From the NCBI GenBank assembly GCA_964016885.1, contig OZ024750.1, positions 47,120,001 through 47,184,000 on the forward strand: a stretch of 64,000 bases of DNA, in the 5' to 3' direction. Origin of the DNA: Eledone cirrhosa (lineage: Eukaryota). Shown in pieces: positions 1 through 62,290 of this stretch. Made by a program: the position numbers and the translations under genes. Position 1 is the first letter of the stretch; every line of letters begins with the position of its first letter. The notes under the pieces were generated by a model, which was given only the letters and a program-made list of their open reading frames with translations, was not told the origin of the DNA and made no database searches.

Positions 1-570
1 TTAATTTTATATTTTATATTTAATATGTTCTCTCTTTTCTTTTCTATCTTTCTATTTCTCTCCCTAAATTTATTTCATTTGTTACATTTAATCTCATCGT
101 ATTACTTTCATTTCTAATACAACTTACAATTAATTAATCAAATAATTAATTAATTATCTAATTATATTATAAAAATAACCAATACACACATGAATATATT
201 TAACATTCCCATGTGTATACCTTCATATCTCTATGTTTTAACCCCAAACACCACAACTACTCTCAATAATCTTACTATGTTTACTTTTCTTCGCACATAT
301 AAACATTTTTTATTTATTTATTTTCATATTTTATATTGTTTTGTATCATCCTCGATGTAACATATTTATTAGCATGTATTTATTTATTGTTGATATCATT
401 GTTTCCCTTTATTTGTCTTCTTCCTTACCTTTTATATTTTTCTTTATCCTTTTCTAATCTCTTTCTATCCTCTTTTCTCTCTGTCTTTTTTCTCTGTATC
501 CTTCTCTTTCTTCCTTTCTCCTTTTTCTTTCTTTTTTCTCTCTCTATCTTTATTACTAATATTATGATGT

Positions 571-748
571 TGGCAGTATCGGTAGAGGGTGGTACATGCC
601 TACCAGCATAGTTACGTCCCTTTAGGATCTGAGTTCAAATCCCGCCGAGGTTAACTTTGTCTTTCGTCCTTACCGGGTTGATAAAATAAAGTACCAGTAA
701 TGAACTGGTAATTTGCTTGCCTTGTGCCAAAAGTAGATGATATTGTTA
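571..748 (+). mobile_element. tRNA-derived SINE (octopus OK/OR-like), near full length
   Basis: TGGCAGTATCGGTAG A-box-like head, GAGTTCAAATCCC B-box, conserved core GAGGTTAACTTTG..TTTC.TCCTTAC.GGGT.GATAAAATAAAGTACCAGT and tail GCCTTGTGCCAAAAGTAGA, repeated about 15 times in the window. Confidence 0.85.
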
Positions 749-1130
749 TTTGAATTCGTAAAAACTGAACATATTTTAATATTCTCCGAAGATCTGGTTA
801 AGCTAGCAACGTATTTAAAATTGAGTGGCACAGCTCCATGTGTTCAGCAATATTTAAACAAATTTATGAGCGAAACAATTGTTAGACTGTAAATAAAACC
901 CTTTTTTGTACTGTTGACCATGTTATACTGCATTCTTCACTCTTTCAATATTATTACTCCAAGATAAACTTACATGGGAATGCAAGATAACTCATAAACA
1001 CGCCACCTACGGAAACCCATTTTTATGTGAAACAACACCGGACGCTAAAACTATCCATAATACGAAGTATTCACAACCTCTAACTGGATTACCTATAACG
1101 ATATTTTGTTATCCCTTATATATATATATG

Positions 1131-1299
1131 TAAGAGGTAAGTTTGATTTAAAACTGCACTATTCACAAGTGTTTTTTAACCTTCATATCATGTCTCCCTA
1201 TTTTATCTGACGAAAACGCAAATGGTATCTCATGATGATATTTATTTTTGAAATGCGCATAATAAAATACATAGAACTCTTTTAACTATCTTTTGATCT

Positions 1300-4445: not shown

Positions 4446-4685
4446 TGTAAAACGTTATTCTAAACCTCATCATACGCATTGAAAAATGCATGGATTTATA
4501 TGTAGATCCCTTGCAATATGGGTTGTAACTCGGGACAGAAAGAACAGAGGGTAGTTATTTTGGTAAGTTGTTTTGAAAGGTTGAGATACATATTTTTGAA
4601 GTTTCGTGATGCCAAAAAAAAAGGAATATTGTAGATACGAATAAAACTGGGTTCTCGTATTGTTTATAGTCCTGAATGACAATAA

Positions 4686-4877
4686 TAAATTTTCTACTGT
4701 TGGCACAAGGCCAGCAATTACCTACAGCGTATTACTGGTCCTTTATTTTAGCGACCCCGTAATTATGAAAGGCAAAGTTAACCTCAGCGGGATTTGATCT
4801 CAGATCATAAAGGGCCGTAACACTATACTGCAAAGCATGGCATCCGACCTTCTACTAATACTGCCAGTCGGTCGCCT
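4686..4877 (-). mobile_element. tRNA-SINE
   Basis: Reverse complement of the SINE consensus (TTTCTACT..TGGCACAAGGCCAGCAATT...ACTGCCA). Confidence 0.8.
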
Positions 4878-4890
4878 TGAATGACAATAA

Positions 4891-5070
4891 CAATTGTTTC
4901 TACTTTTTGGCACAAGGCCAGCAATTTCCCAGTGCATTTCTGGTACTTTATTTTATCGATCCTGTAAGGATGACAGGCAAAGTTAACCTCGGTGAGATTT
5001 GAATTCAAATCATACAAGGACGTAACGCTGTGCTGCAAATCAATACTGCAAATCAAATCTATACTGCCAA
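4891..5070 (-). mobile_element. tRNA-SINE, tandem with the previous copy
   Basis: Same consensus. Confidence 0.8.
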
Positions 5071-5877
5071 TCAAATGCCTAATCAATAGGGCGAGCAGAA
5101 ACAAAGATAACCCGAAATATAATTTGTGTAGAGTTATATTTAATAACTACTACATAAAGATAATATTCGTATAGGTTTTGAATGGGGCATAACTTTTATG
5201 GGAGAAACTCACTGAATATATGACGTTTCCTAAAATCTCATCATTTATGCTCCTTAGAAAACAAAAAAATTCTATATACCCTAAACATATATCAACAGAA
5301 TTTAACAGCAATCGATATTTGTATATTCTATAATTGTGTTTATTTTTTTCTGTACTTTTCTGTACTTGAAATTGAATGAGCATGGCTGTTAATATATACG
5401 TTTCTATGTGTGCGTGAGTGTCTATGTTCTGTGTTTGTGTATATGTGTGAATATGTCTGGATATAATGAATTGCAAAAAAATATATACCATATAACACCT
5501 TATAGATAACTAACAGCTTGGTCAGATAATAAAAGGTGACGTCATTATCATTCCGTGAGTCGGCTGCTTTAGAAATGTTACCTGTCACAATATATTATTG
5601 TGAACTCTCATTTATTTATCTAAACTCATCTATAATAGAAATAGCCATAACTTATACGTTGAATATGTTACAAACGGCAAACATGGAACTAATATTTCTT
5701 ATACTTTCTTTCATTCTTTAGTTGTGTGACTCATTGTTTGACTCGTCTATTAACCCCAGGATTTATAGTATTAAATCTCGTTCTTATTTCATAGATCACC
5801 CCATGTGGATCTAACACGCACCGTTACATCAGACCAGTTCGCAGACAGTCCGGCGGAAATGTTGAGATCAAGAAATT

Positions 5878-6060
5878 AATTGTTTCTACATTTGGCACAA
5901 GGCCAGCAAATAAACCAGTACATTACTGCTACTTTATTTTATCGACCCCGTAAGGATGAAAGGCAAAGTTAACCTCGGTGGGATTAGAACTCAGAATGGC
6001 AAGGGTCGTAACTCAATGCGTCAAAGCATGGCGTCCGACCCTCTGCCGATACTGCCAGCT
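5878..6060 (-). mobile_element. tRNA-SINE
   Basis: Same consensus, near full length. Confidence 0.85.
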
Positions 6061-7985: not shown

Positions 7986-8418
7986 CATATACATACACAA
8001 TACACGTATATATAAGTATTTAAAAAACATAGATATAAAACCACACATACACACACACATATACACACACACGCGCACATACGAATGCGTTCGTATACAT
8101 ATACAAACACGCCTACACGCACATGGACGCTCACACGCATAGATGCAAATTAAAAACCAGCCGTATGAATAAATGAGTACCAATAATACGCAAGTAAACA
8201 TATATAAAAGCGGCCGAGAGGCAACAGAATATATCTGGAGTTGAAAACGCAAGTGACAACAATATCAGGTAGTGAAAGAAAATGGGGAAGTAAAATGTGT
8301 GGAATTGTGAAGATATAAGGTAAGTGAATCAAAAAGCAGGGGGGGGGGGGGGGAGTCACTGGTGGATCTGAAGTAAAAATAAAGTTAAAAATAAAAATAA
8401 AAGTAAATCAGAAATAAT

Positions 8419-8604
8419 TGTTTCTACTTTAGGCACAAGGCCAGCAAATACCCAGTGCATTACTGGTACTTTATTTTATCGACACCGTAAGGATGAAAGG
8501 CAAAGTCAACCTCGGCGGGATTTGAACTCAGATCGTAAAGGGACGTAACTATGCTGGAAAGCATGGCGTCCGACCCTCCACCGATACTGCCAATCCACCG
8601 CCCT
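8419..8604 (-). mobile_element. Full-length tRNA-SINE with 17-bp TSD, nested in the PLE-A copy
   Basis: AGTAAATCAGAAATAAT at 8402-8418 and 8605-8621. Confidence 0.92.
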
Positions 8605-8796
8605 AGTAAATCAGAAATAATAGTCTGTAAAGAGGGTAATTTAAGGAATGTGAAGAACAAGTGTTTATGGAGGATAAGTATCTGAAAGTGAGTTAAGTTT
8701 ATATGAGCTGGAAAGCAAGTGTGAATTCATGTGTGGGTAACTGGTGAAAATGACTTTTTCAATTTTCAACTGAAACTTCAATACTTATATATATAT

Positions 8797-11380: not shown

Positions 11381-12385
11381 AATGCAAATGCTTAAAATTT
11401 AAATTGCCTTAATTCTATCGTCTGCTGTTTCATTAAAGGGAGATTCTCGTCTGTATTTAATTCTATCGTCTACTGTTCCACTAAACAGATATACACTATC
11501 GTCTATATTTATACATTTTAACTTATAACTTATACACATTTGATTTGAAATATTTTATCTAGTCCCCCCTCTCAATATTATGATGATTTCTTTCGAATGA
11601 AACAGTTCTAGTCCTGTAGAAGCCATTTATATATATAATTGAACTGAGTTAAAAATTCACAATATTTATAATTAAATAAGCTCATATATATATGTGTGTA
11701 TTTATCTGTTTATTGTATTATATATAATGTGTGTATATACAGGATGTCCCCCCAAAATATATACACACTTCAACAGCATTCTAATAACTATTGCCTGTAC
11801 AGGTAATCAAAGTGTCAATCGAATGTTAGTTTCGTGTTTTAACAGTACAAATTTACAATACACACATAAAACCAGTGTATATACATACATGAGTGTGTAT
11901 ACACATACATGAATGTGTATATACAATATATATGTATATATATATATAGACACATATATTCACGGTGCAACGGTACATTAAAATATTGATGCGGGAGAGG
12001 GGGGGTGTATATATAGGGGCGCTGGGGATAAAGGAGTGTAAAGCGTGTGTAATTGATATATTGAAGGAGAGGAGCGTGCAACGATAGAGTAACAAATATA
12101 TAGAGAGGGGGAGAGATGGTATTGAAGGGGAGGAGTGCAAAGCGAAAGAGTAAGAGATATATATATATAGAGACGGAACAGATAGAGAGAAACAGGCGTA
12201 AGTAACAGTGGAAGAGATATAGAGAGAGGTACTCTGATTGGTTAAAAATTAGCCAATGACATACGATCACCACCACCACGGCTATCCCCGAAAAATGTTT
12301 ATAGAAGCTAGGCATATATGTTAGAACACGAAAAGTGAACATTCTGTTGTTTCACACTTTTCGTGTTCTAACAGATAATAATAAT

Positions 12386-12655
12386 AATTGTTTCTACTTT
12401 TTGGCACAAGGCCAGCTATTATCCAAGCGCATTACTGGTACTTTATGTTATCGACCCCGTAAGGATGAAAGGCAAAGTTAAACTAGGCGGGATTTGAACT
12501 CAGAATGACAAGGGCCATAACTCTTTGCTTCAAAGCATGGCGTCCGATCCTCTACAGATACTGCCAATCCAGCGCCCTAATCCAAATAATAATAATTGTT
12601 TCTACTTTTGGTACAAGACGAGCCATTACCCAGTTCATTACTGGTAATTTTATTG
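12386..12655 (-). mobile_element. tRNA-SINE (full, to ~12578) followed by the 3' fragment of a second copy
   Basis: Same consensus; (AAT)n tails. Confidence 0.85.
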
Positions 12656-12848: not shown

Positions 12849-13036
12849 CGAAGGAAATGTGGTAAGGAACCAGGTGGACAATAACGCACCAAAGTACTCA
12901 ATGCTTAGGGTAGTAGAGTGGGTAATAGGAACGAGTAGGACCCCGACGGCTGAGCTCAAGCTGTTTCGACGGCTAATTCCAGAATTAGCCGTCGAAACGG
13001 GTTGAGCTCAGCCGTTGGCGTCCTACTCGTTCCTAT
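12847..13036. mobile_element. PLE-terminus remnant forming a 112-bp hairpin (12925-13036) in (TA)n
   Basis: Near-perfect inverted arms centred at ~12980; each arm carries the 3' half of an HHR (stem II-GAAAC..GTT/CTT-GAGCTCAG). Confidence 0.65.
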
Positions 13037-35854: not shown

Positions 35855-35925
35855 TATTTTATTATGCGCATTTCAAAAACAAATATCATCCATGGACGAT
35901 ATTTGCGTTCTCATCAGATAAAATA
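35855..35925 (-). ncRNA. Hammerhead ribozyme (family B)
   Basis: TATTTTAT-CTGATGA-stem II-GAAATGCGCATA^ATAAAATA. Confidence 0.8.
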
Positions 35926-35957
35926 GGGAGACATGATATGAAGCTTTAAAAAAACAC

Positions 35958-36022
35958 TTTATCTGATGAGGACGCAAATATCGTCCCTGGGTGATATTTG
36001 TTTCTGAAATGCGCATAATAAA
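35958..36022 (+). ncRNA. Hammerhead ribozyme (family B)
   Basis: TTTAT-CTGATGA-GGACGCAAATATCG..TGATATTTGTTTCT-GAAATGCGCATA^ATAAA. Confidence 0.8.
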
Positions 36023-36425
36023 ATAGATGGAACTTGTTTAACCATCTTTTAATTTCTTATATATATATATTTATTAAAATAACAGATTAAAGTTTAAGCA
36101 AAAAATCGGTGCTTTCACCCTTAACGGGACCTTCCCGTTTAGGGTGAAAGCAGCGATTGTTTGCTTAAACTTTAATCTGTTATTTTAATAAATATTTGCT
36201 CTACGGTTCTTATAGATTAGATATATATTTATCCTTATCGAGCCCTCTTTAGATTTTAGTCTTCAAATTTATTATTATTACTATATACATATATATATAT
36301 ATGTAGGAGGTGAGTTTTATTGTAGTACAATAAAGCAATGCAGATATCGGATAAGAAGCACTCTACAGTTTGTAGGACTGGAGTATACATAATATAAGAT
36401 CAAAAGATGGTTAAAGGAGTTCCAT

Positions 36426-36497
36426 GTATTTTATTATGCGCATTTCAAAAACAAACATCATCATGCAATAATATTTGTGTTTTCATCAGATAAAACA
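36426..36497 (-). ncRNA. Hammerhead ribozyme (family B)
   Basis: Same architecture. Confidence 0.8.
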
Positions 36498-36661
36498 GGA
36501 GAACATGATATGAAGGCTAAAAAACACTTGTGAATAGTGCAGTTTTAAATCAGCATATGTTGATTTAAAATTGCACTATCCACAAGTGTTTTAAATCAAC
36601 ATATGTTGATTTAAAACTGCACTATCCACAAGTGATTTTTAGCCTTCATATCATGTTCTCC

Positions 36662-36732
36662 TGTTTTATCTGATGAAAACACAAATATTATTGCATGATG
36701 ATGTTTGTTTTTGAAATGCGCATAATAAAATA
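36662..36732 (+). ncRNA. Hammerhead ribozyme (family B)
   Basis: TGTTTTAT-CTGATGA-AAACACAAATATTA..TGATGTTTGTTTTT-GAAATGCGCATA^ATAAAATA. Confidence 0.8.
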
Positions 36733-37909: not shown

Positions 37910-38488
37910 TGAGTATATGTTGGTTGTATACCAACACCTCAGTTTGCAGCCTGGAGCACTCGACGAAGTGCTCAGGTTGGTTTGGTTACTCCGGAGTAAT
38001 GTAAAATAAAGTTAAATAAAAAGTCAAATGTTTAAAATGTAGCTTCGTTTATTACTGCTATATTATATTTCAGTGACAGCCATATTTTGCTCTGACCTCT
38101 TCAGGTAGTCCGAATTAGTGCAGAATAGACACTTGTCTATACTTGTATTAACTAACACCTTGTCCCTTCTACCACTTTATCAATTTTTTAGCTAACTCCA
38201 ACAATAACAACACTTAGAATGTTCTAACAACTTACCAATGAGAGGAGAAGAGGCCCTTTGACACTGAAATTCGTTTGTTTGAATTCATATGATTCCAGTT
38301 CCTCAGTGAAATAACAACTCAACGAGGAACTGGGCATATCAGAGTATTGAGAATATTATACACCTCAACAGCATATGTACTCGTCTCTACCACACTAATT
38401 CGGACTGCCTGAAGATGGCTTTCACTGAAATATATATAGCAGTAATAAACGAAGCTAAATTTTAAACATTTTACTTTTTATTTAACTT

Positions 38489-44413: not shown

Positions 44414-45106
<693 letters not shown>

Positions 45107-45303
45107 GTAGATAAATCTACCAAGAGTTTAAGGTAGTGTCCAATCCGTATGAAGAACTCAATGTATTCCGGATATCATGGAAAGAAGAGATGTAATGAAA
45201 AATCACTTTCGGTGAAAGATAAACGGTATACAGAGTCAAGATAAAATATTAAACAAATAATGAATAAACAATGAAAACAGTTCCTTATATTAAACAAAAA
45301 AAG

Positions 45304-45457
45304 TTCATTATTTAACGATCGTTTCTAGGATATATATGTGTTAGAATTGGCATGCATATTCAACAGATCTATGTACAAAATTATACAAAATTATACAAAC
45401 TATCAAGATTAAATATACATACCAACACATATATACGCCGTCTTCAGAAATAATGAA
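45304..45457 (-). ncRNA. Hammerhead ribozyme (family C)
   Basis: Reverse complement of 54010-54163. Confidence 0.72.
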
Positions 45458-46100
45458 ATATATTTATTGATAATAACAACAATTCAAAATTTCAGGTCCG
45501 TTTGGGAACAAAATTGACCAATGAAAATACAAAAGGTTTAATGCAGTTCGGTGTGTGTATATACATGTAACTACCCTTACACATATTTTACAAAAATGTA
45601 TGCACAACTTGTATACGCATACGAAAAGGATGGATGCAAATACAAAATTTCAAGGTTAATGTCTCTGTAAGTTTATAATGCACAGATAAGATGCGTATAG
45701 ACACATAAATATGAAATAAGTGTATATACATATTTTCATACTCACTCATATCCGTACAATCACACATACACACGCGTATATGCATAAACATACACATAAA
45801 CTACGAACATACAAACACACACACACCCCCACTCACATATATATATGTGGATATAAAATCCTAAGCACATGGATATTAATTCACTCACATAAACATTGGC
45901 ACACACATTTAGATCAAGATACAGAAATTAGGTGGGAGGGGGGGAGAGGTCAGTATTCAACTGTTTGGGCAGACTGCTTAATATAGATGTATCTATAAAC
46001 TAAGAAAATAAAAAATAATAAATAATAAATAAACATTAAAAAGGAAAGAAAAGAAAAAGAAAAAGAAAAAGAAAAAAGAAAAAAGAAATATATCAAGAAA

Positions 46101-46157
<57 letters not shown>

Positions 46158-46323
46158 CACGTACATACACACATATATATACACATACACACATACAAAC
46201 ACATACATACATATACACACATCCACACTTAGAACATACATACACACACATATATAAACATATACATATACACACATACATACATATACACACATACATA
46301 CAAATACACACATATATATACAC

Positions 46324-46372
<49 letters not shown>

Positions 46373-46679
46373 CTCATACATACACATATAATCACACATA
46401 CTATATAGACACACATATATATACACACATACACGCACATATACATACACTTACATACATATATACATACAGAAATACACATACATACCTATATATACAC
46501 ACAAATACATACAGACATACATACATACATACAGACAAATACTTAGGCATCTATATATCGGTATATACATACAAACACCACTACACTCTCACACAACTCA
46601 GACATACAAAGAAAAAGGTATATACCTATACACATATACATATACAAATAGAGAAACATATACATATATATATATATAT

Positions 46680-46722
<43 letters not shown>

Positions 46723-47555
46723 CATACATATACACATATACACACATACACATACATACACATACATACATGTACACACACATAGATATATATACACATA
46801 CACACATACACACATACATATTTAGTCATACACACACATACACCTACACGAACATACACATACACATATATAAAGATATATATACACACACACACACACA
46901 CATACACACACACACATATATATAAAAAATGAAGATATATATATATATATATATATACACATACATATACATACACACATACATAGACATATATGTACAT
47001 ACATACACATACATAGATACATACACACACATACATTCATATATATATACACACATAGACATATACTTACATACACACACAACATACATACACACATATA
47101 TACTCATACATAGAATTAGATATATAATCATACATACATACGCACTTACATATACTCATATATACAAATACATACGCATCCATATATGCGTATATACATA
47201 GAAACACCACTACACCCTCACCCAACTCAGACATACAAAGAAAAAGGCATATACATATACATATATACACGCATTAATAGAGATATATATACACATATAT
47301 ATATATATATATATACACACATACACTTATATATATATACTCACACCCACATACAACCAAAAATACACATACAAACACCCACATATACATATATATACAC
47401 ATATATATATATACACACACATAAAAAACAGACATGCACATATATATTTTTTTACACACATATATACACATATATATATATACATATACACACCCTCACA
47501 TATACACACATACACATAAGTTATATTATAATAATAAATAATATATATATATAAC

Positions 47556-47614
<59 letters not shown>

Positions 47615-47875
47615 CGAATATAGACATACATACGCACATAGATACATATATATATATACATATACACATACATATACACACACACATATACACACTCACA
47701 TATACATGTGTGTGCACACACACATATATACACATACACACGTATACACATAAACACATATATGTGTATACATGCGCACACACACATATATCCACATAGA
47801 TACGAAGATAGACATATAAATAGAGAGACATACATATATATACACACACACACATATACATACATACATACACAC

Positions 47876-47952
<77 letters not shown>

Positions 47953-48635
47953 CACATATATATACACACATGCATATATACACATATACACATACATACA
48001 CACACATATATATACACACACAATCTTACATTCTTATTTGCATGCGCATATATGTATTTTTATATTCAGATATAAATACCCAAACATATATACACCTACC
48101 TACATATATATTCATACATACACGCCTACAAACACAGATGGTAATAGTATGGGGGAAAGGGGGGGGGTTGGAGAAGGGGATTATAGTAAATATATGTTTC
48201 AAGAAACATAGAATATTATCCGTATCAGGATCCAATGTATATTTTTTTACATAGTTTCAGTGTTAGGAAATACAATAAACAAGAAATAAGGCAAAATTTA
48301 TGCATTTCAAAATAAATAAGTATACCATTAAATTATATGTTAACTAAACTAAAGATAGTTAACATATTGATTTCTAAGGTGTAAATTAGTTAGGTTTATA
48401 ATATTTGAAGCAGAATTTTGAAGTTAAATATTAGTAGAGTATTAATTATAGTATAACTAAATTAAAGTTAATAACGTTATGGTATCAATATTAGGAAATG
48501 AATTTAGTAATAGGGAAAAAACAAATAAAGTATTACATCGGTAGTAGAATATAAATTATAGGTTAACTAAATTAAAAATTATATATTTATTTCTATAGTA
48601 TATGTTAATTAGGTATATAGTAAATAAAACAGATA

Positions 48636-50090
48636 TTGTATTTTATCAATAGCAGAATATATCCCCACCTCAAAGGTGGTTTATATCGTGATGACTGTCT
48701 TCTTCTTTCTAACAACCTTAGCCTTTCAGAAATTGAAAAAAACAAAAAACATATTAGAACTTTCCTTAAAGACTATTATAATCTTAATATTACTTTTGAA
48801 AAAACAAGTAAAGTAGTAAATTTCCTAGATATAACTTTAGATTTAGCTACGGGTATCTACCAACCTTACCATAAACCAAACCAAAACTTACATTACATAC
48901 ACTCACAATCTAATCACCCTAAATCTATCCTTAAAAACCTTGCATATAATATATCACTTAGAATTTCTAACCTTTCTTCTAACCAAGATGTATTTGATAA
49001 AAATGCGACCTTCTATAACGAAGCTCTAGATAGAAGTGGCCACAAAAATAGATTAGAATATATACCTTCTACTAAAAATACTGAAAGCATACAACCTAAT
49101 ATTACCAACAAACACCAAATGAAAAGTACACACCTAAATGCCACCCACACTATACCCCAAAATACCAAATCTTCTAATATAAAGTATAGTAACTCTCAAA
49201 AAACTACTCATCATACAACTCTAATAAATATTAATAATAAAACTCCTAATAAAAAGGATAAAACACCTAAATCTACAAATATAACTAAAAATGGTTGTGG
49301 TGAGATCATTAACATTAATCCTCCTAGTAAAAATCACGATACAACCTATAAAAATAATAAAAATAATAAACAACATAGAAACCGTAATAGACGGGTTACT
49401 TGGTATAATGCTCCATTTAATTTACAAATTAAGGATAATATTGCTAAAAAATTTTTTTATATCCTAGAGAAAAACTTCCCGCCAAACCACAAATACCATC
49501 AAATCTTAAATAGGTCTACAGTTAAATTCTCATATTCTACAACAAATAACATAAAACAAAATATAAGTGCCTATAATGCATATAAATGTAAGAAAACCAT
49601 AAGTATACCACCAGTACATCAAATTAACCATAATATCTCCTCAAATACAGAATTAACGAAAGGTTGTAACTGTAGAAACAAAGCAAACTGCCCATTAAAA
49701 GGGAATTGTCTTGTTAACAACATAGTCTATAAATGTAATGTTAAAACTAAAGATTCTATTTGCTCATATATAGGAGCTACCTCTAACAATTTTAAGACAA
49801 GGTTTAATACCCACAAGCATAGTTTTAAAAATGCCGCACTGGCTAATACAACATCTCTAGCAGAAAAAATCAATATTTATAAAAATAAGAATATAGAATA
49901 TGATTTGAGCTGGAGTGTGCTCAAAAGAGCCACCCCTTATCAAAATAATAGAAATGAATGTAGATTATGTTCCCAAGAACTATTTGAAATAATGAAATCT
50001 AAGGATATCCTATTAAATAAACGACAGGAATTAATTATATCGTGTAATCATAAACTAAAAAAAACATTTAAATATTATAAACCTAATTAA
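48636..50090 (+). CDS. PLE RT (from YRDD motif)-GIY-YIG endonuclease, uninterrupted but 5'-truncated; first ~8 codons come from the inverted arm
   Basis: GGLYRDD, VNFLDITL, SNHP, WYNAPF, CNCRNKANCPL, IVY...YIG, FKTRFNTH, CRLC..E, CNH. Confidence 0.88.
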   Translation: MYFINSRIYPHLKGGLYRDDCLLLSNNLSLSEIEKNKKHIRTFLKDYYNLNITFEKTSKVVNFLDITLDLATGIYQPYHKPNQNLHYIHSQSNHPKSILKNLAYNISLRISNLSSNQDVFDKNATFYNEALDRSGHKNRLEYIPSTKNTESIQPNITNKHQMKSTHLNATHTIPQNTKSSNIKYSNSQKTTHHTTLININNKTPNKKDKTPKSTNITKNGCGEIININPPSKNHDTTYKNNKNNKQHRNRNRRVTWYNAPFNLQIKDNIAKKFFYILEKNFPPNHKYHQILNRSTVKFSYSTTNNIKQNISAYNAYKCKKTISIPPVHQINHNISSNTELTKGCNCRNKANCPLKGNCLVNNIVYKCNVKTKDSICSYIGATSNNFKTRFNTHKHSFKNAALANTTSLAEKINIYKNKNIEYDLSWSVLKRATPYQNNRNECRLCSQELFEIMKSKDILLNKRQELIISCNHKLKKTFKYYKPN

Positions 50091-51414
50091 TAACATTATT
50101 TTAGAAATTAATTTAATTTAAATGTTAGTTAACCTATAAATTTAATTTAATTAAAATTCTATTACAGTTGAGAATATAAAATATTATGTAATCATAAATT
50201 GTGAAAAACCTTTAAATATTACTAATATATACTTAGTAATTTAATTTATAGATTAATTTTAATTTATTTAAACCTTTTATTATAATTCTTTTACAGATAA
50301 AATATAACAAAATATCGTGTATCCAATGACAGAGAATTAACTTTTAGTATTATAGACCTAATTAATATACATTTTAGAAATATATTTATAATTTGGTTTT
50401 AATTTTAATCAACCTAAAAATTTAATTTAATTGGCTTAACATTCGTATCCTTATACAGACGAATTGCAGAATGTCATGTAATCATAGAATGGGATGTGTT
50501 TTGGATATATACCTAGTTAATATATTCTTTGCAATTTTTGAAAAAATATGTATATGTATATGTGTATGTGTATGTGTGTGTGTATATGTGTATATATGTA
50601 TATATATGGGTATATATATGTGTATATATATATGTGTATGTATATGTATATGTATATGTATTAATTTTGATTTCTATTTGCATATAATTATATTCTGCTA
50701 TTGATAAAATACAATATCTGTTTTATTTACTATATACCTAATTAACATATACTATAGAAATAAATATATAATTTTTTAATTTAGTTAACCTATAATTTAT
50801 ATTCTACTACCGATGTAATACTTTATTTGTTTTTTCCCTATTACTAAATTCATTTCCTAATATTGATACCATAACGTTATTAACTTTAATTTAGTTATAC
50901 TATAATTAATACTCTACTACTATTTAACTTCAAAATTCTGCTTCAAATATTATAAACCTAACTAATTTACACCTTAGAAATCAATATGTTAACTATCTTT
51001 AGTTTAGTTAACATATAATTTAATGGTATACTTATTTATTTTGAAATGCATAAATTTTGCCTTATTTCTTGTTTATTGTATTTCCTAACACTGAAACTAT
51101 GTAAAAAAATATACATTGGATCCTGATACGGATAATATTCTATGTTTCTTGAAACATATATTTACTATAATCCCCTTCTCCAACCCCCCCCCCCTTTCCC
51201 CCATACTATTACCATCTGTGTTTGTAGGCGTGTATGTATGAATATATATGTAGGTAGGTTTATATATGTTTGGGTATTTATATCTGAATATAAAAATACA
51301 TATATGCGCATGCAAATAAGAATGTAAGATTGCGTGTGTATATATATGTGTGTGTATGTATGTGTATATGTGTATATATGCATGTGTGTATATATATGTG
51401 TATGTGTATGTGTG

Positions 51415-51489
<75 letters not shown>

Positions 51490-51748
51490 GTGTGTATGTA
51501 TGTATGTATATGTGTGTGTGTGTATATATATGTATGTCTCTCTATTTATATGTCTATCTTCGTATCTATGTGGATATATGTGTGTGTGCGCATGTATACA
51601 CATATATGTGTTTATGTGTATACGTGTGTATGTGTATATATGTGTGTGTGCACACACATGTATATGTGAGTGTGTATATGTGTGTGTGTATATGTATGTG
51701 TATATGTATATATATATGTATCTATGTGCGTATGTATGTCTATATTCG

Positions 51749-51803
<55 letters not shown>

Positions 51804-52395
51804 GTTATATATATATATTATTTATTATTATAATATAACTTATGTGTATGTGTGTATATGTGAGGGTGTGTATATGTATATATATATATGTGTATATATG
51901 TGTGTAAAAAAATATATATGTGCATGTCTGTTTTTTATGTGTGTGTATATATATATATGTGTATATATATGTATATGTGGGTGTTTGTATGTGTATTTTT
52001 GGTTGTATGTGGGTGTGAGTATATATATATAAGTGTATGTGTGTATATATATATATATATATATGTGTATATATATCTCTATTAATGCGTGTATATATGT
52101 ATATGTATATGCCTTTTTCTTTGTATGTCTGAGTTGGGTGAGGGTGTAGTGGTGTTTCTATGTATATACGCATATATGGATGCGTATGTATTTGTATATA
52201 TGAGTATATGTAAGTGCGTATGTATGTATGATTATATATCTAATTCTATGTATGAGTATATATGTGTGTATGTATGTTGTGTGTGTATGTAAGTATATGT
52301 CTATGTGTGTATGTATATATGTATGTATGTGTGTGTATGTATCTATGTATGTGTATGTATGTACATATATGTCTATGTATGTGTGTATGTATATG

Positions 52396-52466
<71 letters not shown>

Positions 52467-52674
52467 TCATTTTTTATATATATGTGTGTGTGTGTATGTG
52501 TGTGTGTGTGTGTATATATATCTTTATATATGTGTATGTGTATGTTCGTGTAGGTGTATGTGTGTGTATGACTAAATATGTATGTGTGTATGTGTGTATG
52601 TGTATATATATCTATGTGTGTGTACATGTATGTATGTGTATGTATGTGTATGTGTGTATATGTGTATATGTATG

Positions 52675-52726
<52 letters not shown>

Positions 52727-53018
52727 TGTATATGTTTCTCTATTTGTATATGTATATGTGTATAGGTATATACCTTTTTCTTTGTATGTCTGAGTTGTGT
52801 GAGAGTGTAGTGGTGTTTGTATGTATATACCGATATATAGATGCCTAAGTATTTGTCTGTATGTATGTATGTATGTCTGTATGTATTTGTGTGTATATAT
52901 AGGTATGTATGTGTATTTCTGTATGTATATATGTATGTAAGTGTATGTATATGTGCGTGTATGTGTGTATATATATGTGTGTCTATATAGTATGTGTGAT
53001 TATATGTGTATGTATGAG

Positions 53019-53069
<51 letters not shown>

Positions 53070-53235
53070 GTGTATATATATGTGTGTATTTGTATGTATG
53101 TGTGTATATGTATGTATGTGTGTATATGTATATGTTTATATATGTGTGTGTATGTATGTTCTAAGTGTGGACGTGTGTATATGTATGTATGTGTTTGTAT
53201 GTGTGCATGTGTATATATATGTGTGTATGTACGTG

Positions 53236-53375
<140 letters not shown>

Positions 53376-54009
53376 CTTGATATATTTCTTTTTTCTTTTT
53401 TCTTTTTCTTTTTCTTTTCTTTCCTTTTTAATGTTTATTTATTATTTATTATTTTTTATTTTCTTAGTTTATAGATACATCTATATTAAGCAGTCTGCCC
53501 AAACAGTTGAATACTGACCTCTCCCCCCCTCCCACCTAATTTCTGTATCTTGATCTAAATGTGTGTGCCAATGTTTATGTGAGTGAATTAATATCCATGT
53601 GCTTAGGATTTTATATCCACATATATATATGTGAGTGGGGGTGTGTGTGTGTTTGTATGTTCGTAGTTTATGTGTATGTTTATGCATATACGCGTGTGTA
53701 TGTGTGATTGTACGGATATGAGTGAGTATGAAAATATGTATATACACTTATTTCATATTTATGTGTCTATACGCATCTTATCTGTGCATTATAAACTTAC
53801 AGAGACATTAACCTTGAAATTTTGTATTTGCATCCATCCTTTTCGTATGCGTATACAAGTTGTGCATACATTTTTGTAAAATATGTGTAAGGGTAGTTAC
53901 ATGTATATACACACACCGAACTGCATTAAACCTTTTGTATTTTCATTGGTCAATTTTGTTCCCAAACGGACCTGAAATTTTGAATTGTTGTTATTATCAA
54001 TAAATATAT

Positions 54010-54163
54010 TTCATTATTTCTGAAGACGGCGTATATATGTGTTGGTATGTATATTTAATCTTGATAGTTTGTATAATTTTGTATAATTTTGTACATAGAT
54101 CTGTTGAATATGCATGCCAATTCTAACACATATATATCCTAGAAACGATCGTTAAATAATGAA
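54010..54163 (+). ncRNA. Hammerhead ribozyme (family C), ~115-nt stem II
   Basis: 10-bp stem I TTCATTATTT/AAATAATGAA; CTGAAGA; TATATATGTGTT/AACACATATATA; GAAA; palindromic AACGATCGTT; cleavage GUU. Confidence 0.75.
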
Positions 54164-54225
54164 CTTTTTTTGTTTAATATAAGGAACTGTTTTCATTGTT
54201 TATTCATTATTTGTTTAATATTTTA

Positions 54226-55225: not shown

Positions 55226-55425
55226 CATATATAGATGAGATTCTACAGGACTAGAACTGTTTCATTCATTAGAAATCATCAGGAATCTCAGAGATTCCTG
55301 ATGATTTCTAATGAATGAAACAGTTCTAGTCCTCTAGAATCTCATCTATATTAAAACTGTTATACTCTGCTATGTATTGAGTACCTTACTTACTGTGGTT
55401 ACCTCCGACTCAACCCGGAATAACG

Positions 55426-56536: not shown

Positions 56537-56616
56537 TATATGTATATACATATATATATTATATGTATATACATATATATATATATATGTATATACATAT
56601 ATATATATATATATTT

Positions 56617-56670
<54 letters not shown>
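54226..56670. repeat. 2.4-kb (TA)n-derived array
   Basis: Direct reading; interrupted at 55230-55425. Confidence 0.95.
55230..55425. mobile_element. PLE terminus family J: 120-bp palindrome of two back-to-back HHRs (55237-55289 minus; 55291-55343 plus) plus tail
   Basis: GAGATTC-CTGATGA-TTTC TAAT GAAT-GAAA-CAG TTCTAGTC CTG-TA^GAATCTC; degraded relative at 11579-11628. Confidence 0.8.
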
Positions 56671-56672
<2 letters not shown>

Positions 56673-56809
56673 TATACATGGAAAGTTATATTTGAATTGT
56701 TGGGTTAACAACGAGTAAATATTTATAACTGATATAAAAGCACTCAACAAGTATTTGGAGTTTATTTATGATATTAAATAAATGGAAACTATATTTATAA
56801 AACCATATT

Positions 56810-56875
56810 TATTTCGTTATATATATTTCAGGGATATCATATTAACAATATGTTATGCCGTCTTCAGACAAAATA
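56810..56875 (-). ncRNA. Hammerhead ribozyme (family I)
   Basis: TATTTTGT-CTGAAGA-CGGCATAACATATT GTT AATATGATATCCCT-GAAA-TATATA-TA^ACGAAATA. Confidence 0.75.
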
Positions 56876-58193
56876 CAATATAAACAGTCTTATAAATAAA
56901 TAGATACGACATACCTTTCAATCACCTTGCATTTGGGAGGTTGATTTGGTAGTAAAGAATATTGTGGACAGTTGTAAAAAGAAAGAGATAAAGAGAGAAA
57001 GAAAGAGAAACGAAGAAAAAGAAGAAATGCATGTGACTAAATAGAGGGATATAGAAAGATAGATAAAGAGAAGAACTTCATGTAAAGAAACAGAGAGAAA
57101 TATATATAGAGAGAGGAAAGAAGAAAAAAGAAAGAGATAGATAGAGATAGATAGAGAAATTAGGAAGTTGAGTATCGGTTGATACATTTATTTATTTATT
57201 TATTTACTTATTTATTTAGCTCTAGTATTAATGTAAAGAGAGATGTATGTAGTTAAGAGAGAAAATAGCCGTTATATAGAGAGAAAAAAGAGAAAATGAA
57301 AAAGAGAAAATGAAACACAACCAGACATACACGATGCAGAATTTAAAACCGCTATGTTTTATCCGTAGAAAATATTAGTTCATATAAAATAGGCATTATA
57401 ATGTAAGTACCAGTATTCATGAATGAGACATGTATCTATAAAGTGTGAAAAGTAATGATCTTATGTCTAGTTTTTAAAAATTCATATGTTTATATCATAA
57501 TTATAAACAAACTCCCAATTCACACGAAAACATTCTCATTGTGCTATAAAAATTCAAGTATACATATATGTGTGTATATATACACATATATATAGAGAGT
57601 CTATATTAATTTTAACAATACTACTCTTGTCTTTATTCTACCTGATTGTCGATCAAGCAGAAATAGAGAATAGATTTCAATATATTAATAAAAATAAAAA
57701 TAAAAATAAAAATAAAAATAAAAATGAAAATAAAAATATCAGAGACAAGAAAATAAATAAATAAATAAACAGAAAACTAAAACATTGAATATTAAAAATA
57801 AAAAATATTACAAAATATTAAAAAATATTAAAAAATAATACAAATAAAACACAGAGATCAGCCTTTCAAAGTTAATTGACAATATATTGCCAAGATCATC
57901 ATAAGCATCAGAGTCGAAACAGATAAAACAAAAATTGTTTACCAAATCCTGTCTAGCAGAAATCATTCCAAAAGTTTAGGATACCCATTTGGTCTACATA
58001 TGTTCTTTTATATAATATAGAAGTTTATCTAGTTTAAAATTTAATTCGATATATTTGGAGCATCAGCTTTTAGGGTAGTTTAATTATTCATGAAGAATGT
58101 TTTAATAAAAGAATGTTTTAATAAAAAGAAGAAATCGAAAGATTTATCGGCTAGTTTCATAAATAATTACAAATCAAATCAAAACAAACATAA

Positions 58194-58466
58194 TTACATT
58201 TTAAATTTAAATTTATATTTAAACGTTGAGTTCAATCTATGTCTGCAGCAACTGAATAAATTTGTCCGTAGATTAAGGGAATTTTTAGATTTTAGTATAA
58301 AGAATATCTCCTCCGCACAGAGGTCACATGTCTCAGAGGATGAATTAAAAGGAATCCCCCTTGAAACTATATTCCAAGTCGTCAAATATCTAACATTATC
58401 ATGCCTAAGTTGCCAGAGTACGCCTGATAGTGCTGTTGAAGATTTTTTGGATGGATCTGTGAAAGA
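58194..58466 (-). pseudogene. C-terminal GIY-YIG fragment of PLE-I
   Basis: SFTDPSKKSSTALS..W.L.....W.I....PF.....CDLCAEEIFFIL...LNLR....CRH, parallel to the ends of the other PLE ORFs. Confidence 0.85.
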
Positions 58467-59292
58467 ATTTTTATTTTTATTAATATATTGAAATCTGTTC
58501 TCTATTTCTGCTTGATCGACAATCAGGTAGAATAAAGACAAGAGTAGTATTGTTAAAAGTAATATAGACTCTATATATATATGTGTATATATACACACAT
58601 ATATGTATACTTGAATTTTTATAGCACAATGAGAATGTTTTCGTGTGAATTGGGAGTTTGTTTATAATTATGATATAAACATATGAATTTTTAAAAACTA
58701 GACATAAGATCATTACTTTTCACACATTATAGATACATGTCTCATTCATGAATACTGGTACTTACATTATAATGCCTGTTTTATATGAACTAATATTTTC
58801 TACGGATAAAACATAGCGGTTTTAAATTCTGCATCGTGTATGTCTGGTTGTGTTTCATTTTCTCTTTTTCATTTTCTCTTTTTTCTCTATATATAACGGC
58901 TATTTTCTCTCTTAACTACATACATCTCTCTTTACATTTATACTAGAGCTTAATAAATAAATAAATAAATAAATAAATAAATGTATCAACCGATACTCAA
59001 CTTCCTAATTTCTCTATCTATCTCTATCTATCTCTTTCTTTTTTCTTCTTTCCTCTCTCTATATATATTTCTCTCTGTTTCTTTACATGAAGTTCTTCTC
59101 TTTATCTATCTTTCTATATCCCTCTATTTAGTCACATGCATTTCTTCTTTTTCTTCGTTTCTCTTTCTTTCTCTCTTTATCTCTTTCTTTTTACAACTTT
59201 CCACAATATTCTTTACTACCAAATCAACCTCCCAAATGCAAGGTGATTGAAAGGTATGTCGTATCTATTTATTTATAAGACTGTTTATATTG

Positions 59293-59358
59293 TATTTTGT
59301 CTGAAGACGGCATAACATATTGTTAATATGATATCCCTGAAATATATATAACGAAATA
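59293..59358 (+). ncRNA. Hammerhead ribozyme (family I), inverted arm
   Basis: Reverse complement of 56810-56875. Confidence 0.75.
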
Positions 59359-59497
59359 AATATGGTTTTATAAATATAGTTTCCATTTATTTAATATCAT
59401 AAATAAACTCCAAATACTTGTTGAGTGCTTTTATATCAGTTATAAATATTTACTCGTTGTTAACCCAACAATTTAAATATAACTTTCCATGTATAAT

Positions 59498-60102
<605 letters not shown>

Positions 60103-60104
<2 letters not shown>

Positions 60105-60478
60105 AACTTTGAATAACTTTGAAATGTTTTGGCCAGTATTGGCCCAGGCCATGTCTAACTTAATAGCACCACCTGGCGAAGTCTTTCAATTCAGGATTTG
60201 GGCACTATGGCCCATTCGAGAAGTGAAATACTGTTTGCGGAGACATATCCGGGTGTGGATGGTTTGTCCGGGATTACTTGGAGAAATTTGTCCAAAGACT
60301 TCTTGAATTTTGTGTGGTCAGTTTCTGTTTTGATGTGTCCTGGTGTGATGTTGAAGAGAGCAGGGCCAATTGAGGTGAAATAATTGTGCCGTATTGTTGT
60401 TATGAGTTGCGATTTAGATATTTGTTTGGGACGGATACCAATCCCACGGAACTCAACATTGCTCTTACTGATCATTTC
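60103..60478 (-). mobile_element. 3' end of a CR1/L2-group-like LINE (ORF2 C-terminus 60191-60475 plus short 3' UTR)
   Basis: RHNYFTSIGPALFN..P.......[20 protein letters not shown]; ends in tandem TTCAAAGTTA repeats at (TA)n. Confidence 0.65.
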
Positions 60479-60479
60479 G

Positions 60480-62039
60480 TGGGATTGATACCAGTGAGCT
60501 GGGACTCCTACTTAAACTTACCTATAGTAATAATTACCTAGACACACATGACCTTAGCAACCTGTGCCCTACAAGACCAGCAAGAGGCACACCACCTACC
60601 ATTACCTCAATGGCCAAGAAAACCCAAACAGATAGATGGAACGGGTGGACCAGAGCCATACGATCACCCGAAAACCACGATGAACTGAAGAAAATGATTG
60701 CACATGCGGTAGTGGCCACCATAAAACTAACGCTTAAGGAACATATGTTCAAATTTAATGGAAAGACATATGCCCAAGAAGAAGGAGCAGCCATTGGTGT
60801 TAGCATTGCAGGCGACATAGCTAACTTATTCATGGTATGGTGGGACAGTAGACTTAAACTTAAACTTAAAGAACAATTAGAAGACCCCTTAACCCTGATA
60901 ATGTACTCCCGCTACGTTGATGATATAAACATCGTAGTTAAGACACCCCCTCTAGAGAACAGTCAGGAACTAGAGAAAAACACAATGGAAAGCATCCAGC
61001 AAATAGCTAACACCATCCAGCAGAGCATTAGAGTTACTATAGCCTACCCAAGTAAACACCCCAACCATCGATTACCTGTACTAGACACATAGCTCTGGTT
61101 AGATACCATTAATAACAAAAAACAAATTCTCCATTCCCATTATGCCAAACTCATGACTTCCAAACATCTGATCCACCGAAACTCGGCCGTTTCGGACCAT
61201 ACCAAAATCAACATACTGATTGCGGATTTGGTACGGGTGATGAGAAACGTGTCCCGCATGTGCAACCCCGAAGAACTAGAGAGACACATACAACACTTCA
61301 TCCACCTTATGCAGTTCTCTGGCTACAATCAGAGAGATAAAATCAGAGTGTATAGAGGAGCCAGAACCAAATGAGGAAAAATGGTAAATAATGACATAAA
61401 TGGGACCTGCCCCTTGTATAGGAGCAAATTTTGGAATAGAATAGTAAGAACTAGGAACAAGGCTAATAGAATAAACTCATGGTATGATAGCAATAAATAC
61501 CAGAGTGTAATGTTCATCGATACCCTAGAGGTGAATTAGCTTACAAATTTAGAAGGGCCCTAGATAAACATAAACTCAATATTAAGATTGTAGAAAGACC
61601 AGGTACTTCCGTAAAACCACTTATTAGCAAGTCATACCCTTTTCAAAGACCCTCATGTATAGATAAGAAATGTATAACCTGTAAAATAAGCCCCCATATT
61701 AACTGTAAAACTAGAAATGTAGTGTATAGCATAAGATGTACTGAAGGACAATGTAGAGATAAAAAGATAGTGTACATAGGTGAGACAGCTCGTAGTGTAG
61801 GGGAACGGATAAATGAACACTGGCGAGACCTTCAAGATAGTAAAGAATCGTCTGTACTCTACCAACATGCTAAAATAGAACACAAGGGTCAAATAGAGGA
61901 CATAGAAATAAAAATAGAATCTACACACAGAAAAGACGCAATGTTTAGACAAATCACAGTGGCAATAAACATAAAAGAATTACAACCAAAATTAAATAGA
62001 AAATATCAGTGGAACAGCAACATCACAACTTACAATTGA
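60480..62039 (+). pseudogene. PLE RT-GIY-YIG, disrupted
   Basis: YAQEEGAAIG, SRYVDD, LPVLD, FSGY, CIDKKCITC..C, VVY..C....C....YIGETARSVGERINEH; stops at 61090 and 61372, frameshift at ~61525. Confidence 0.88.
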
Positions 62040-62247
62040 GGACAAAATGAAAACACAAACACACATAGAACAAACAACCAACCAGTAACATGTAAATAAA
62101 CAAATAAATAAATGAACATAAACACACACAGACACCCGGATGTGTCGCATGCGCAGACTGAGCACACAACACACACACACAGAAACAAAATGGCGTAGGA
62201 CAGAAGAAAGGAAAGGAGAGGCACAGAAACAAATAAAGGAATCCCCA

Positions 62248-62290
62248 GTCACTGAGGAGGTCACATAGTGTGTGACGAAAGAACTATGAC
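62248..62290 (+). ncRNA. Minimal hammerhead ribozyme (family L)
   Basis: GTCA-CTGAGGA-G-GTCACA TAGTG TGTGAC-GAAA-GAAC-TA^TGAC. Confidence 0.72.

What the first reader, a model, noticed from the sequence alone, without database searches (positions are those of the whole stretch)
54010..54163. Hammerheads with a 90-115-nt stem II domain (families C and D)
Seen: in family C the two core halves are separated by ~115 nt that begins and ends with TATATATGTGTT/AACACATATATA and contains a second helix TTGGTATG/CAT(G/A)CCAA. In family D the insert is ~90 nt, closed by TGGTGTG/TACACTA. Both have C after CUGAnGA, UA before GAAA, a 10-nt palindromic stem III and a GUU site, although their sequences are otherwise unrelated. 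Inference: a distinct large-stem-II HHR architecture that short-loop descriptors would miss; the insert could be an RT-binding or regulatory domain.
Basis: partly seen in the sequence, partly recalled or inferred. Interest (0 to 1): 0.8.

Follow-up and report, generated by a model that had tools for sequence, protein, structure and literature searches.

The report
Penelope hammerheads with 40-bp stem II
Two hammerhead ribozyme motifs at the ends of Penelope-like jumping genes in this animal DNA have one arm stretched to 90 and 115 bases, predicted to fold as a long hairpin three to four times the longest spacer seen in related elements; they likely still cut their RNA as pairs, and the extra arm is likely a tolerated extension rather than a new working part.

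Summary
Four family C and two family D copies have intact type I hammerhead cores, an 8-bp palindromic stem III and a GUU site; shuffled windows give 0.07 such hits. Both families end Hydra-clade Penelope-like elements (PLEs). D sits in both pseudo-LTRs of a full-length broken element. C ends a 5'-truncated element with an inverted arm. The inserts are unbranched rods of 43 and 36 predicted pairs (z -7.0 and -4.7; 12 G-U, 0 A-C) and share no sequence. The host proteins, however, fall in one subclade with a third element of this window (38-nt stem II), so the shared core details are likely inherited. Elsewhere, 61 of 75 Hydra-type loci had a hammerhead, all with 10-29-nt spacers. Published descriptors (26 nt at most) would miss these motifs, but Rfam also misses short ones. 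Nothing tested here supports an RT-binding or regulatory role; the listed variation lies in the distal arm. Cleavage is untested. This scan already noted long-stem-II PLE hammerheads on other pieces of this genome and in other genomes. Verdict: a new, extreme length variant of a known kind.

The parts
54010..54163 (+). Family C type I hammerhead: stem I 10 bp, CUGAAGA core, stem II, GAAA, palindromic stem III, predicted cut 54153|54154
54027..54141 (+). Family C stem II insert, 115 nt, predicted unbranched rod of 43 pairs (6 G-U) with a 6-nt bulge
48660..50090 (+). 5'-truncated Hydra-type PLE ORF (RT motif 5 onward, CxCx5C linker, GIY-YIG-like endonuclease with CxxC and CxH)
50091..54009 (+). 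About 3.9-kb microsatellite-rich 3' region between the ORF and the hammerhead of element C
45100..48661 (-). Inverted arm of element C (copy of 50689-54225 plus a ~145-nt longer 3' tail ending in (TA)n)
45304..45457 (-). Family C hammerhead, second copy, identical to 54010-54163
25324..25870 (.). Two-armed family C mini-element in (TA)n: hammerheads at 25375-25525 (-) and 25524-25674 (+), joined at the 5' strand of stem I
21812..21928 (-). Family D hammerhead in the upstream pseudo-LTR (21762-22021); insert 21917-21828; predicted cut 212 nt before the ORF's ATG
19331..21604 (-). Full-length Hydra-type PLE ORF of element D (RWKA, ADKT, CxCx5C, GIY-YIG), broken by two frameshifts and one stop
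18804..18920 (-). Family D hammerhead in the downstream pseudo-LTR (18754-19013); 90-nt insert 18909-18820, predicted rod of 36 pairs (6 G-U)
16419..16486 (+). Comparator: hammerhead with 38-nt stem II ending a third Hydra-type element (ORF about 13535-15140) of the same subclade

Best explanation
These are type I hammerhead motifs at the 3' end of Hydra-clade Penelope-like retrotransposons that likely cut their RNA after GUU as dimers, and whose stem II is lengthened to 90-115 nt, predicted to fold as a self-pairing rod that is likely tolerated rather than a separate functional domain. Shown: the core, the three-helix layout, the position in pseudo-LTRs or at element ends, the Hydra motifs, (TA)n targets and the shared subclade of the host proteins. 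Predicted: the rod folds on its own and brings the two core halves together whatever its length. Stem III has only 2 bp in a monomer, so two copies would pair through the 8-nt palindrome, for example the two pseudo-LTR copies 3.0 kb apart in a D-type transcript. Inferred: the arm grew in this lineage by small fold-back duplications, and only insertions that pair on the transcribed strand were kept.
For: Core and helices are present in 6 of 6 copies; null 0.07 hits per window. D flanks a PLE ORF as 260-nt direct repeats that are 98% alike. C follows a PLE ORF and has the inverted 5' arm typical of PLEs (PMC8557442). D has RWKA, ADKT, CxCx5C, CxxC and CxH, the Hydra signature. C, D and the 38-nt element group with P0001 and P0004 at 99.6/100, and C+D+P0001+P0004 at 82.8/90. 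Inserts fold at z -6.95 and -4.66 (0 of 500 shuffles reach them) against -2.6 and -2.5 for the antisense strands; 12 G-U and 0 A-C appositions. Listed substitutions in four other organisms: 0 of 45 positions in core, stem III and basal 13 bp, against 10 of 89 distal positions (Fisher p 0.016); listed indels in the motif are all distal. The double-hammerhead dimer scores -101.4 against -93.0 kcal/mol for two monomers (C) and -66.6 against -62.8 (D). Dimer cleavage of short-stem-III animal hammerheads is published (PMC4209133, PMC7229834).
Against: Cleavage was not tested. Non-catalytic dimers score lower still (-105.6 and -73.0), and monomers hold the open core in only 0.1-0.2% of the ensemble. 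The canonical G10.1-C11.1 pair is replaced by C.A. Core alone against insert is not significant (0 of 15 against 10 of 115, p 0.60). The significant split was chosen after seeing the data, and one search's table lists fewer differences than its records hold. The G-U excess is helped by the U/G-rich sense strand. Strong pairing along the whole rod in two diverged families could equally mean a function beyond closing stem II. All three long-stem elements share one host, so base composition could inflate their grouping. D has no cross-copy variation data (its two hammerheads are identical).
Confidence: 0.68

Rival explanations
1. The long stem II is an acquired functional domain of this Hydra subclade: a docking arm for the element's RT-endonuclease, or a switch that makes cleavage protein-assisted.
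For: Long rods occur in two diverged elements of one subclade, with strand-biased pairing along their whole length. The Anolis Poseidon hammerhead cleaves only with its protein (PMC11167929). The smallest C copies begin exactly at stem I and keep the whole arm.
Against: No sequence is shared between the C and D inserts. Length within the subclade runs 38, 90 and 115 nt. Contigs of other organisms show distal substitutions and indels, some of which break pairs of this window's fold. In Poseidon, RT starts in a stem-loop downstream of the hammerhead, not in stem II. Other Hydra-type loci have 10-29-nt spacers.
Confidence: 0.17
2. The motifs are vestigial: a hammerhead inactivated by an inverted duplication in loop II, carried along passively, with the rod a decaying DNA palindrome.
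For: The window holds many perfect fold-back palindromes. C's 3' arm is close to the reverse complement of its 5' arm. Every copy spans an uncut site, and Poseidon inserts uncleaved RNA in vitro. The predicted open-core fraction is low.
Against: A neutrally decaying palindrome should give G-U and A-C alike; found 12 and 0. Core, palindrome and GUU are intact in both families although the inserts share nothing and the host proteins are only 32% identical in the endonuclease region. Short-stem families A, B and F have similarly low open-core fractions.
Confidence: 0.13
3. The hammerhead pattern is a chance match: two short motifs about 100 nt apart in AT-rich repeats.
For: Long allowed spacers do give false calls: 2 of 55 survey hits were miscalls.
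Against: Null 0.07 hits per window, and 0.017 with a palindromic stem III and a long spacer. The motifs lie at the PLE position where hammerheads are expected, and no shorter alternative was found there.
Confidence: 0.02

Closest known systems
Hammerheads of Hydra-clade PLEs (Craig et al. 2021, PMC8557442; passages, part 4 of section 3, and supplement parts 1, 2, 52, 53 read)
   Same: Type I motif near the 3' end or in the pseudo-LTR, short near-palindromic stem III, (TA)n insertion, and the RWK, DKT, CxCx5C, CxxC and CxH protein motifs.
   Different: Hydra rows of File S2 have loop 2 of 3-10 nt; here the stem II domain is 90 and 115 nt. The longest loop in that table is 35 nt (PLE-X1_sMoe, not Hydra, marked as deviating). 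C's 3' region is 3.9 kb, whereas Hydra elements are described as generally under 3 kb in all.
Minimal and palindromic-helix-III PLE hammerheads (Cervera & De la Pena 2014, PMC4209133; parts 1-2 of 4 and supplement passages read)
   Same: Same core, optional extra N10 and N11 at the base of stem II, palindromic 15.2-16.2 region, dimer model.
   Different: Their 'larger than usual' helix II is 7-8 bp and their descriptor stops at a 10-nt loop; these have 36-43 predicted pairs.
Poseidon PAc hammerhead (PMC11167929; passages read)
   Same: Hammerhead in the pseudo-LTR upstream of the ORF; element ends with and without a tail; uncut sites in genomic copies.
   Different: Different PLE clade. In PAc the ORF starts inside stem II; in D the predicted cut is 212 nt upstream of the ATG.
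Animal non-LTR retrozymes (PMC7229834, passages and section 15 read; bioRxiv 10.64898/2026.07.22.740005, part 1 of 5 read)
   Same: Type I hammerheads with weak helix III, dimer cleavage, and a mismatch at the base of helix II (U.U in HHR_Amex2) that still allows cleavage.
   Different: C and D are not head-to-tail tandem repeats, and both are tied to PLE ORFs. Only the two-armed C mini-element is non-coding.

Membership tests
Type I hammerhead ribozyme | Core CUGANGA ... GAAA ... UH with A15.1-U16.1 and H17 not G | tested here: met
   6 of 6 copies: CUGAAGA or CUGAUGA, GAAA, GUU
Type I hammerhead ribozyme | Three helices around the core, open at stem I | tested here: met
   Stem I 10 bp (C; 8 bp in the mini-element) and 4 bp (D); stem II rod; stem III 2 bp as monomer or 8 bp as dimer; by prediction only
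Type I hammerhead ribozyme | G10.1-C11.1 pair at the base of stem II (usual, not universal) | tested here: not met
   C.A apposition followed by G-U or G-C (C) and A-U (D). The same C.A occurs in PLE-X1_cBra and L059, and the PLE descriptor allows extra N10 and N11; a U.U variant cleaves
Type I hammerhead ribozyme | Loop I-loop II tertiary contact of canonical hammerheads | not testable with these tools
   No terminal loop lies near the core in these rods; PLE hammerheads are described as usually lacking the contact
Type I hammerhead ribozyme | Self-cleavage 3' of H17 | not testable with these tools
   Needs an assay
Rfam hammerhead families | Match to an Rfam hammerhead model | tested here: inconclusive
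   No hit for C or D, but none for short-stem controls either: 62248 and 0 of 12 loci
Hydra-clade PLE | RWK motif and DKG changed to DKT | tested here: met
   Element D: RIRWKA and ADKT. Element C is truncated before these motifs
Hydra-clade PLE | C-terminal GIY-YIG with CxCX5C linker and CxxC/CxH around the conserved E and N | tested here: met
   C: CNCRNKANC, CRLC, CNHK. D: CNCTKPGTC, CKLC, CNHR. Pfam GIY-YIG E 0.002 for D, below the cut-off; none for C
Hydra-clade PLE | Insertion into (TA)n, with pseudo-LTR or inverted 5'-truncated arrangement | tested here: met
   Ends abut TA repeats; direct pseudo-LTRs in D, inverted arm in C
Hydra-clade PLE | RT phylogeny with named Hydra reference elements against other PLE clades | not tested
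   Trees held only unnamed homologues with Hydra motifs; no named references or outgroup
Non-LTR retrozyme | Non-coding head-to-tail tandem repeats, each with a hammerhead | tested here: not met
   C and D copies are inverted or flank an ORF

The most novel reading that the evidence does not exclude
One subclade of Hydra-type Penelope elements has turned hammerhead stem II into a 40-base-pair arm that is a working part: a shape-read docking site for the element's RT-endonuclease that gates dimer cleavage, and that lets a minimal 'hammerhead plus tail' RNA be mobilised as a two-armed mini-element across species.
Probability: 0.17. Interest if true: 0.62.

Novelty: new variant of a known kind. 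Interest (0 to 1): 0.36.

Why it matters
Hammerheads in PLE ends are known. What this adds is scale and a lineage. Natural stem II arms of about 40 bp lie beyond the descriptors I could read, so hammerhead counts in such genomes, and 'no hammerhead' calls for PLE families, may be too low. The graded series in one subclade (38, 90, 115 nt) gives a ready deletion experiment on the open question of what PLE hammerheads do and whether the element's protein reads them. If the arm is only tolerated, the result is a modest extension of known hammerhead plasticity.

Tried and rejected
No whole genome is held for this window, so copy numbers and a genome-wide covariance model could not be made. Rfam on the whole window listed only microRNA-like and other unrelated repeat matches among the 150 of 305 rows shown. 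The repeat finder was swamped by TA microsatellites. Pfam found no family in the C ORF; homologue search identified it; the search among longer proteins found none. No relatives of the C/D subclade were found in viral contigs or prokaryote genomes, so the stem II of P0001 and P0004 is unknown. Two survey hits with 64- and 135-nt spacers (L007, L009) were dropped as miscalls: each has a 25-nt hammerhead near the ORF end. No RNA holder was listed for the C stretch. Variation data for family D in other runs were not obtained. The first tree held a wrongly framed family B row and was an unfinished search; one search replaces it. Family B's endonuclease fragment does not match the C/D subclade best, and its insert is no closer to C's than chance (143 of 500 shuffles), so I do not count it in the lineage. 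An ADAR-editing origin of the G-U pairs was considered: A/G and C/U variants in the motif number 4 and 3, so there is no support. Sequence look-ups in earlier findings found no look-alike of C or D. Lunse et al. 2016 could not be read, and the Terminon paper was not read.

Full report
Observation. The window is AT-rich, microsatellite-laden DNA that I read as animal (no whole genome is held). A type I hammerhead scan found family C at 54010-54163 (+), 45304-45457 (-), 25375-25525 (-) and 25524-25674 (+), with spacers of 115-116 nt between CUGAAGA and GAAA, and family D at 21812-21928 (-) and 18804-18920 (-), with a 90-nt spacer. A descriptor that also demands a paired stem II base gave 14 hits in the window, 6 with spacers of 60 nt or more, against a mean of 0.07 in 60 block-wise dinucleotide shuffles. 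The six long copies are not independent: they come from three insertions of two families.

Context. D lies in both 260-nt direct repeats (98% alike; the hammerheads are identical) around a 2.3-kb ORF broken by two frameshifts and a stop. [quoted passage not shown] C lies 3.9 kb behind a 5'-truncated ORF (about 48660-50090) with the same linker and endonuclease motifs and 51 homologues. Bases 45242-48661 are an inverted copy of 50689-54225, the usual PLE arrangement. All ends abut TA repeats. One end of each C insertion carries a ~145-nt longer tail, like the one-sided PLE tail. A two-armed C mini-element at 25324-25870 folds back at the 5' strand of stem I.

Structure. Each insert folds as one unbranched rod: 43 pairs for C (-40.5 kcal/mol, z -6.95) and 36 for D (-28.9, z -4.66); 0 of 500 shuffles reach either. 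The antisense strands give z -2.6 and -2.5, and the most negative flanking windows -3.5 (of 12) and -2.0 (of 8). G-U pairs number 12 and A-C appositions 0, as expected if pairing matters on the transcribed strand, though that strand is U/G-rich. The base of stem II is a C.A apposition, not G10.1-C11.1. This has precedent in PLE-X1_cBra, in locus L059 and in the optional N10/N11 of the published descriptor. Stem III has 2 bp in a monomer, and only 0.1-0.2% of the predicted monomer ensemble has the core open; short-stem families of the window are similar (0-3%). The double-hammerhead dimer is 8.4 (C) and 3.8 (D) kcal/mol better than two monomers, but 4.2 and 6.4 worse than non-catalytic dimers. 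Dimer activity is therefore plausible, as published for PLE and axolotl motifs, but not shown.

How unusual is the length? Hydra rows in File S2 of PMC8557442 have loops of 3-10 nt; the longest loop in that table is 35 nt, in a non-Hydra element. A 2026 paper-8 bp a 'long' helix II and 4-5 bp typical (PMC13725137, passages and outline). I fetched 78 Hydra-type loci (the best 80 of 480 matches, so biased to one query); 75 held the ORF end. A descriptor allowing 250 nt hit 55 of them (41 distinct sequences). Two were miscalls, and relaxed reading gave 8 more hammerheads including those two loci. That makes 61 of 75 loci, all with 10-29-nt spacers; 14 had none, 10 of them with under 300 nt of 3' sequence. 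None of the 12 such loci in the final tree joined the C/D subclade. Inside the window, spacers run 18, 31, 36, 38, 90 and 115-116 nt, so C and D are the far end of a range. Five paper searches listed no report of a 90-115-nt stem II in a PLE hammerhead. Lunse et al. 2016 and the Terminon paper were not read and may bear on this, as may one supplement file of PMC4209133 that could not be searched.

Are C and D unrelated? Their inserts are. Their host proteins are not: on 354 shared columns of 27 proteins, C, D and the element at 13535-16486 (38-nt stem II) group with P0001 and P0004 at 99.6/100, and C, D, P0001 and P0004 at 82.8/90 (midpoint-rooted, no outgroup; 12 of the 51 homologues and 12 of the 78 loci used). 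The shared C.A base, palindrome and GUU are thus likely inherited. By eye, the third element resembles the published Hydra-1_Obim, whose spacer is 23 nt, which suggests growth inside the lineage; this was not computed.

Conservation. The C stretch is held in part by runs of several organisms. Contigs of 4 of those runs, laid at 80% likeness, list 18 substitution sites. None falls in the 15 core positions and 10 fall in the 115-nt insert (p 0.60). With stem III and the basal 13 bp added, it is 0 of 45 against 10 of 89 (p 0.016; split chosen afterwards). Of 9 listed changes at paired positions, 4 keep a pair and 5 break one in this window's fold; partners near contig ends are not listed, so compensation cannot be judged. 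Distal indels include loss of one 9-nt repeat unit, and one loose end reads as an arm without the 6-nt bulge. The table is incomplete (45 records not shown), so this is indicative only. For D no such data were obtained.

Mechanism and rivals. Most likely the element's transcript carries one or two hammerheads that pair through the palindrome and cut after GUU slowly or with protein help, while insertion uses mostly uncut RNA, as for Poseidon. The rod likely just closes stem II (0.68). A docking or switch role (0.17) has no positive test here, though the Poseidon protein dependence and the minimal mini-element keep it open. A dead ribozyme with a decaying palindrome (0.13) fits the G-U/A-C bias and the intact cores poorly. 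Chance is excluded (0.02).

Descriptor blind spot. Published PLE descriptors allow at most 26 nt, or 17 nt with manual cases of 35-50 nt, so they miss C and D. Rfam misses them too, but it also misses short-stem PLE hammerheads, so that blank says nothing about length.

Earlier notes of this scan (unchecked AI notes) report long-stem-II PLE hammerheads on other pieces of this genome and in other genomes; none matched C or D by sequence. My Hydra-clade reading was written before I saw them. Hammerhead position numbers (10.1, 15.1 and so on) follow the standard numbering, partly recalled. Verdict: real, a new length variant of a known kind, interest 0.36.

Noticed in passing
window 25324-25870; one search runs X6, X7, X8: A two-armed C mini-element folds back at the 5' strand of stem I. 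Contigs from three other organisms show a palindromic junction at the same place (without the window's 2-nt spacer), and in X6 nothing upstream of 54010 was laid. It is either a non-autonomous subfamily or one old shared insertion.
   Followed up: partly
window 54150-54151; one search runs X5, X6: Three listed contigs leave the C sequence 2-3 nt before the predicted cut, two with the same first five loose letters. They could be copies made from the 5' cleavage product, or diverged variants; a weak lead only.
   Followed up: no
window 50091-54009, 56875-58236, 15140-16419: Hydra-type elements here have long 3' regions (3.9, 1.4 and 1.3 kb; microsatellite-rich in the first and third), whereas most metagenome loci have the hammerhead 50-500 nt after the ORF.
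   Followed up: partly
window 56560-59608: Family B: inverted arms of 1142 nt around a Hydra-like endonuclease fragment (58236-58529, -), with hammerheads of 31-nt stem II at 56810-56875 (-) and 59293-59358 (+).
   Followed up: partly
window 1199-1269, 35855-36022, 36427-36732: Family A: five hammerheads with 36-nt stem II and an ATGCGCAT palindrome, four of them in two inverted pairs; no ORF was assigned.
   Followed up: partly
window 60472-62290: A broken PLE of another type (CX4CxxC linker, Neptune/Nematis-like by motif only) with an ordinary 18-nt-spacer hammerhead at 62248-62290.
   Followed up: partly
window 38404-38443: A lone short hammerhead-like motif (11-nt spacer, ATATATAT palindrome) found by the loose scan only.
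   Followed up: no
window 55247-55333, 12925-13036, 36067-36195: Near-perfect DNA palindromes of 87-129 nt, the first two next to TA repeats; possibly fold-back remnants of other element ends.
   Followed up: no
window 570-750, 4681-5042, 5870-6057, 8410-8605, 12380-12600, 29026-29220 and others: A ~190-nt interspersed repeat with more than ten copies at 75-96% identity; not classified. Earlier notes describe permuted hammerheads in small repeats of this genome; I did not check this one.
   Followed up: no
window 45100-45140 (-) and 25826-25870 (+): The long C tail ends in short overlapping hairpins just before the TA target, a candidate for the RT start signal.
   Followed up: no
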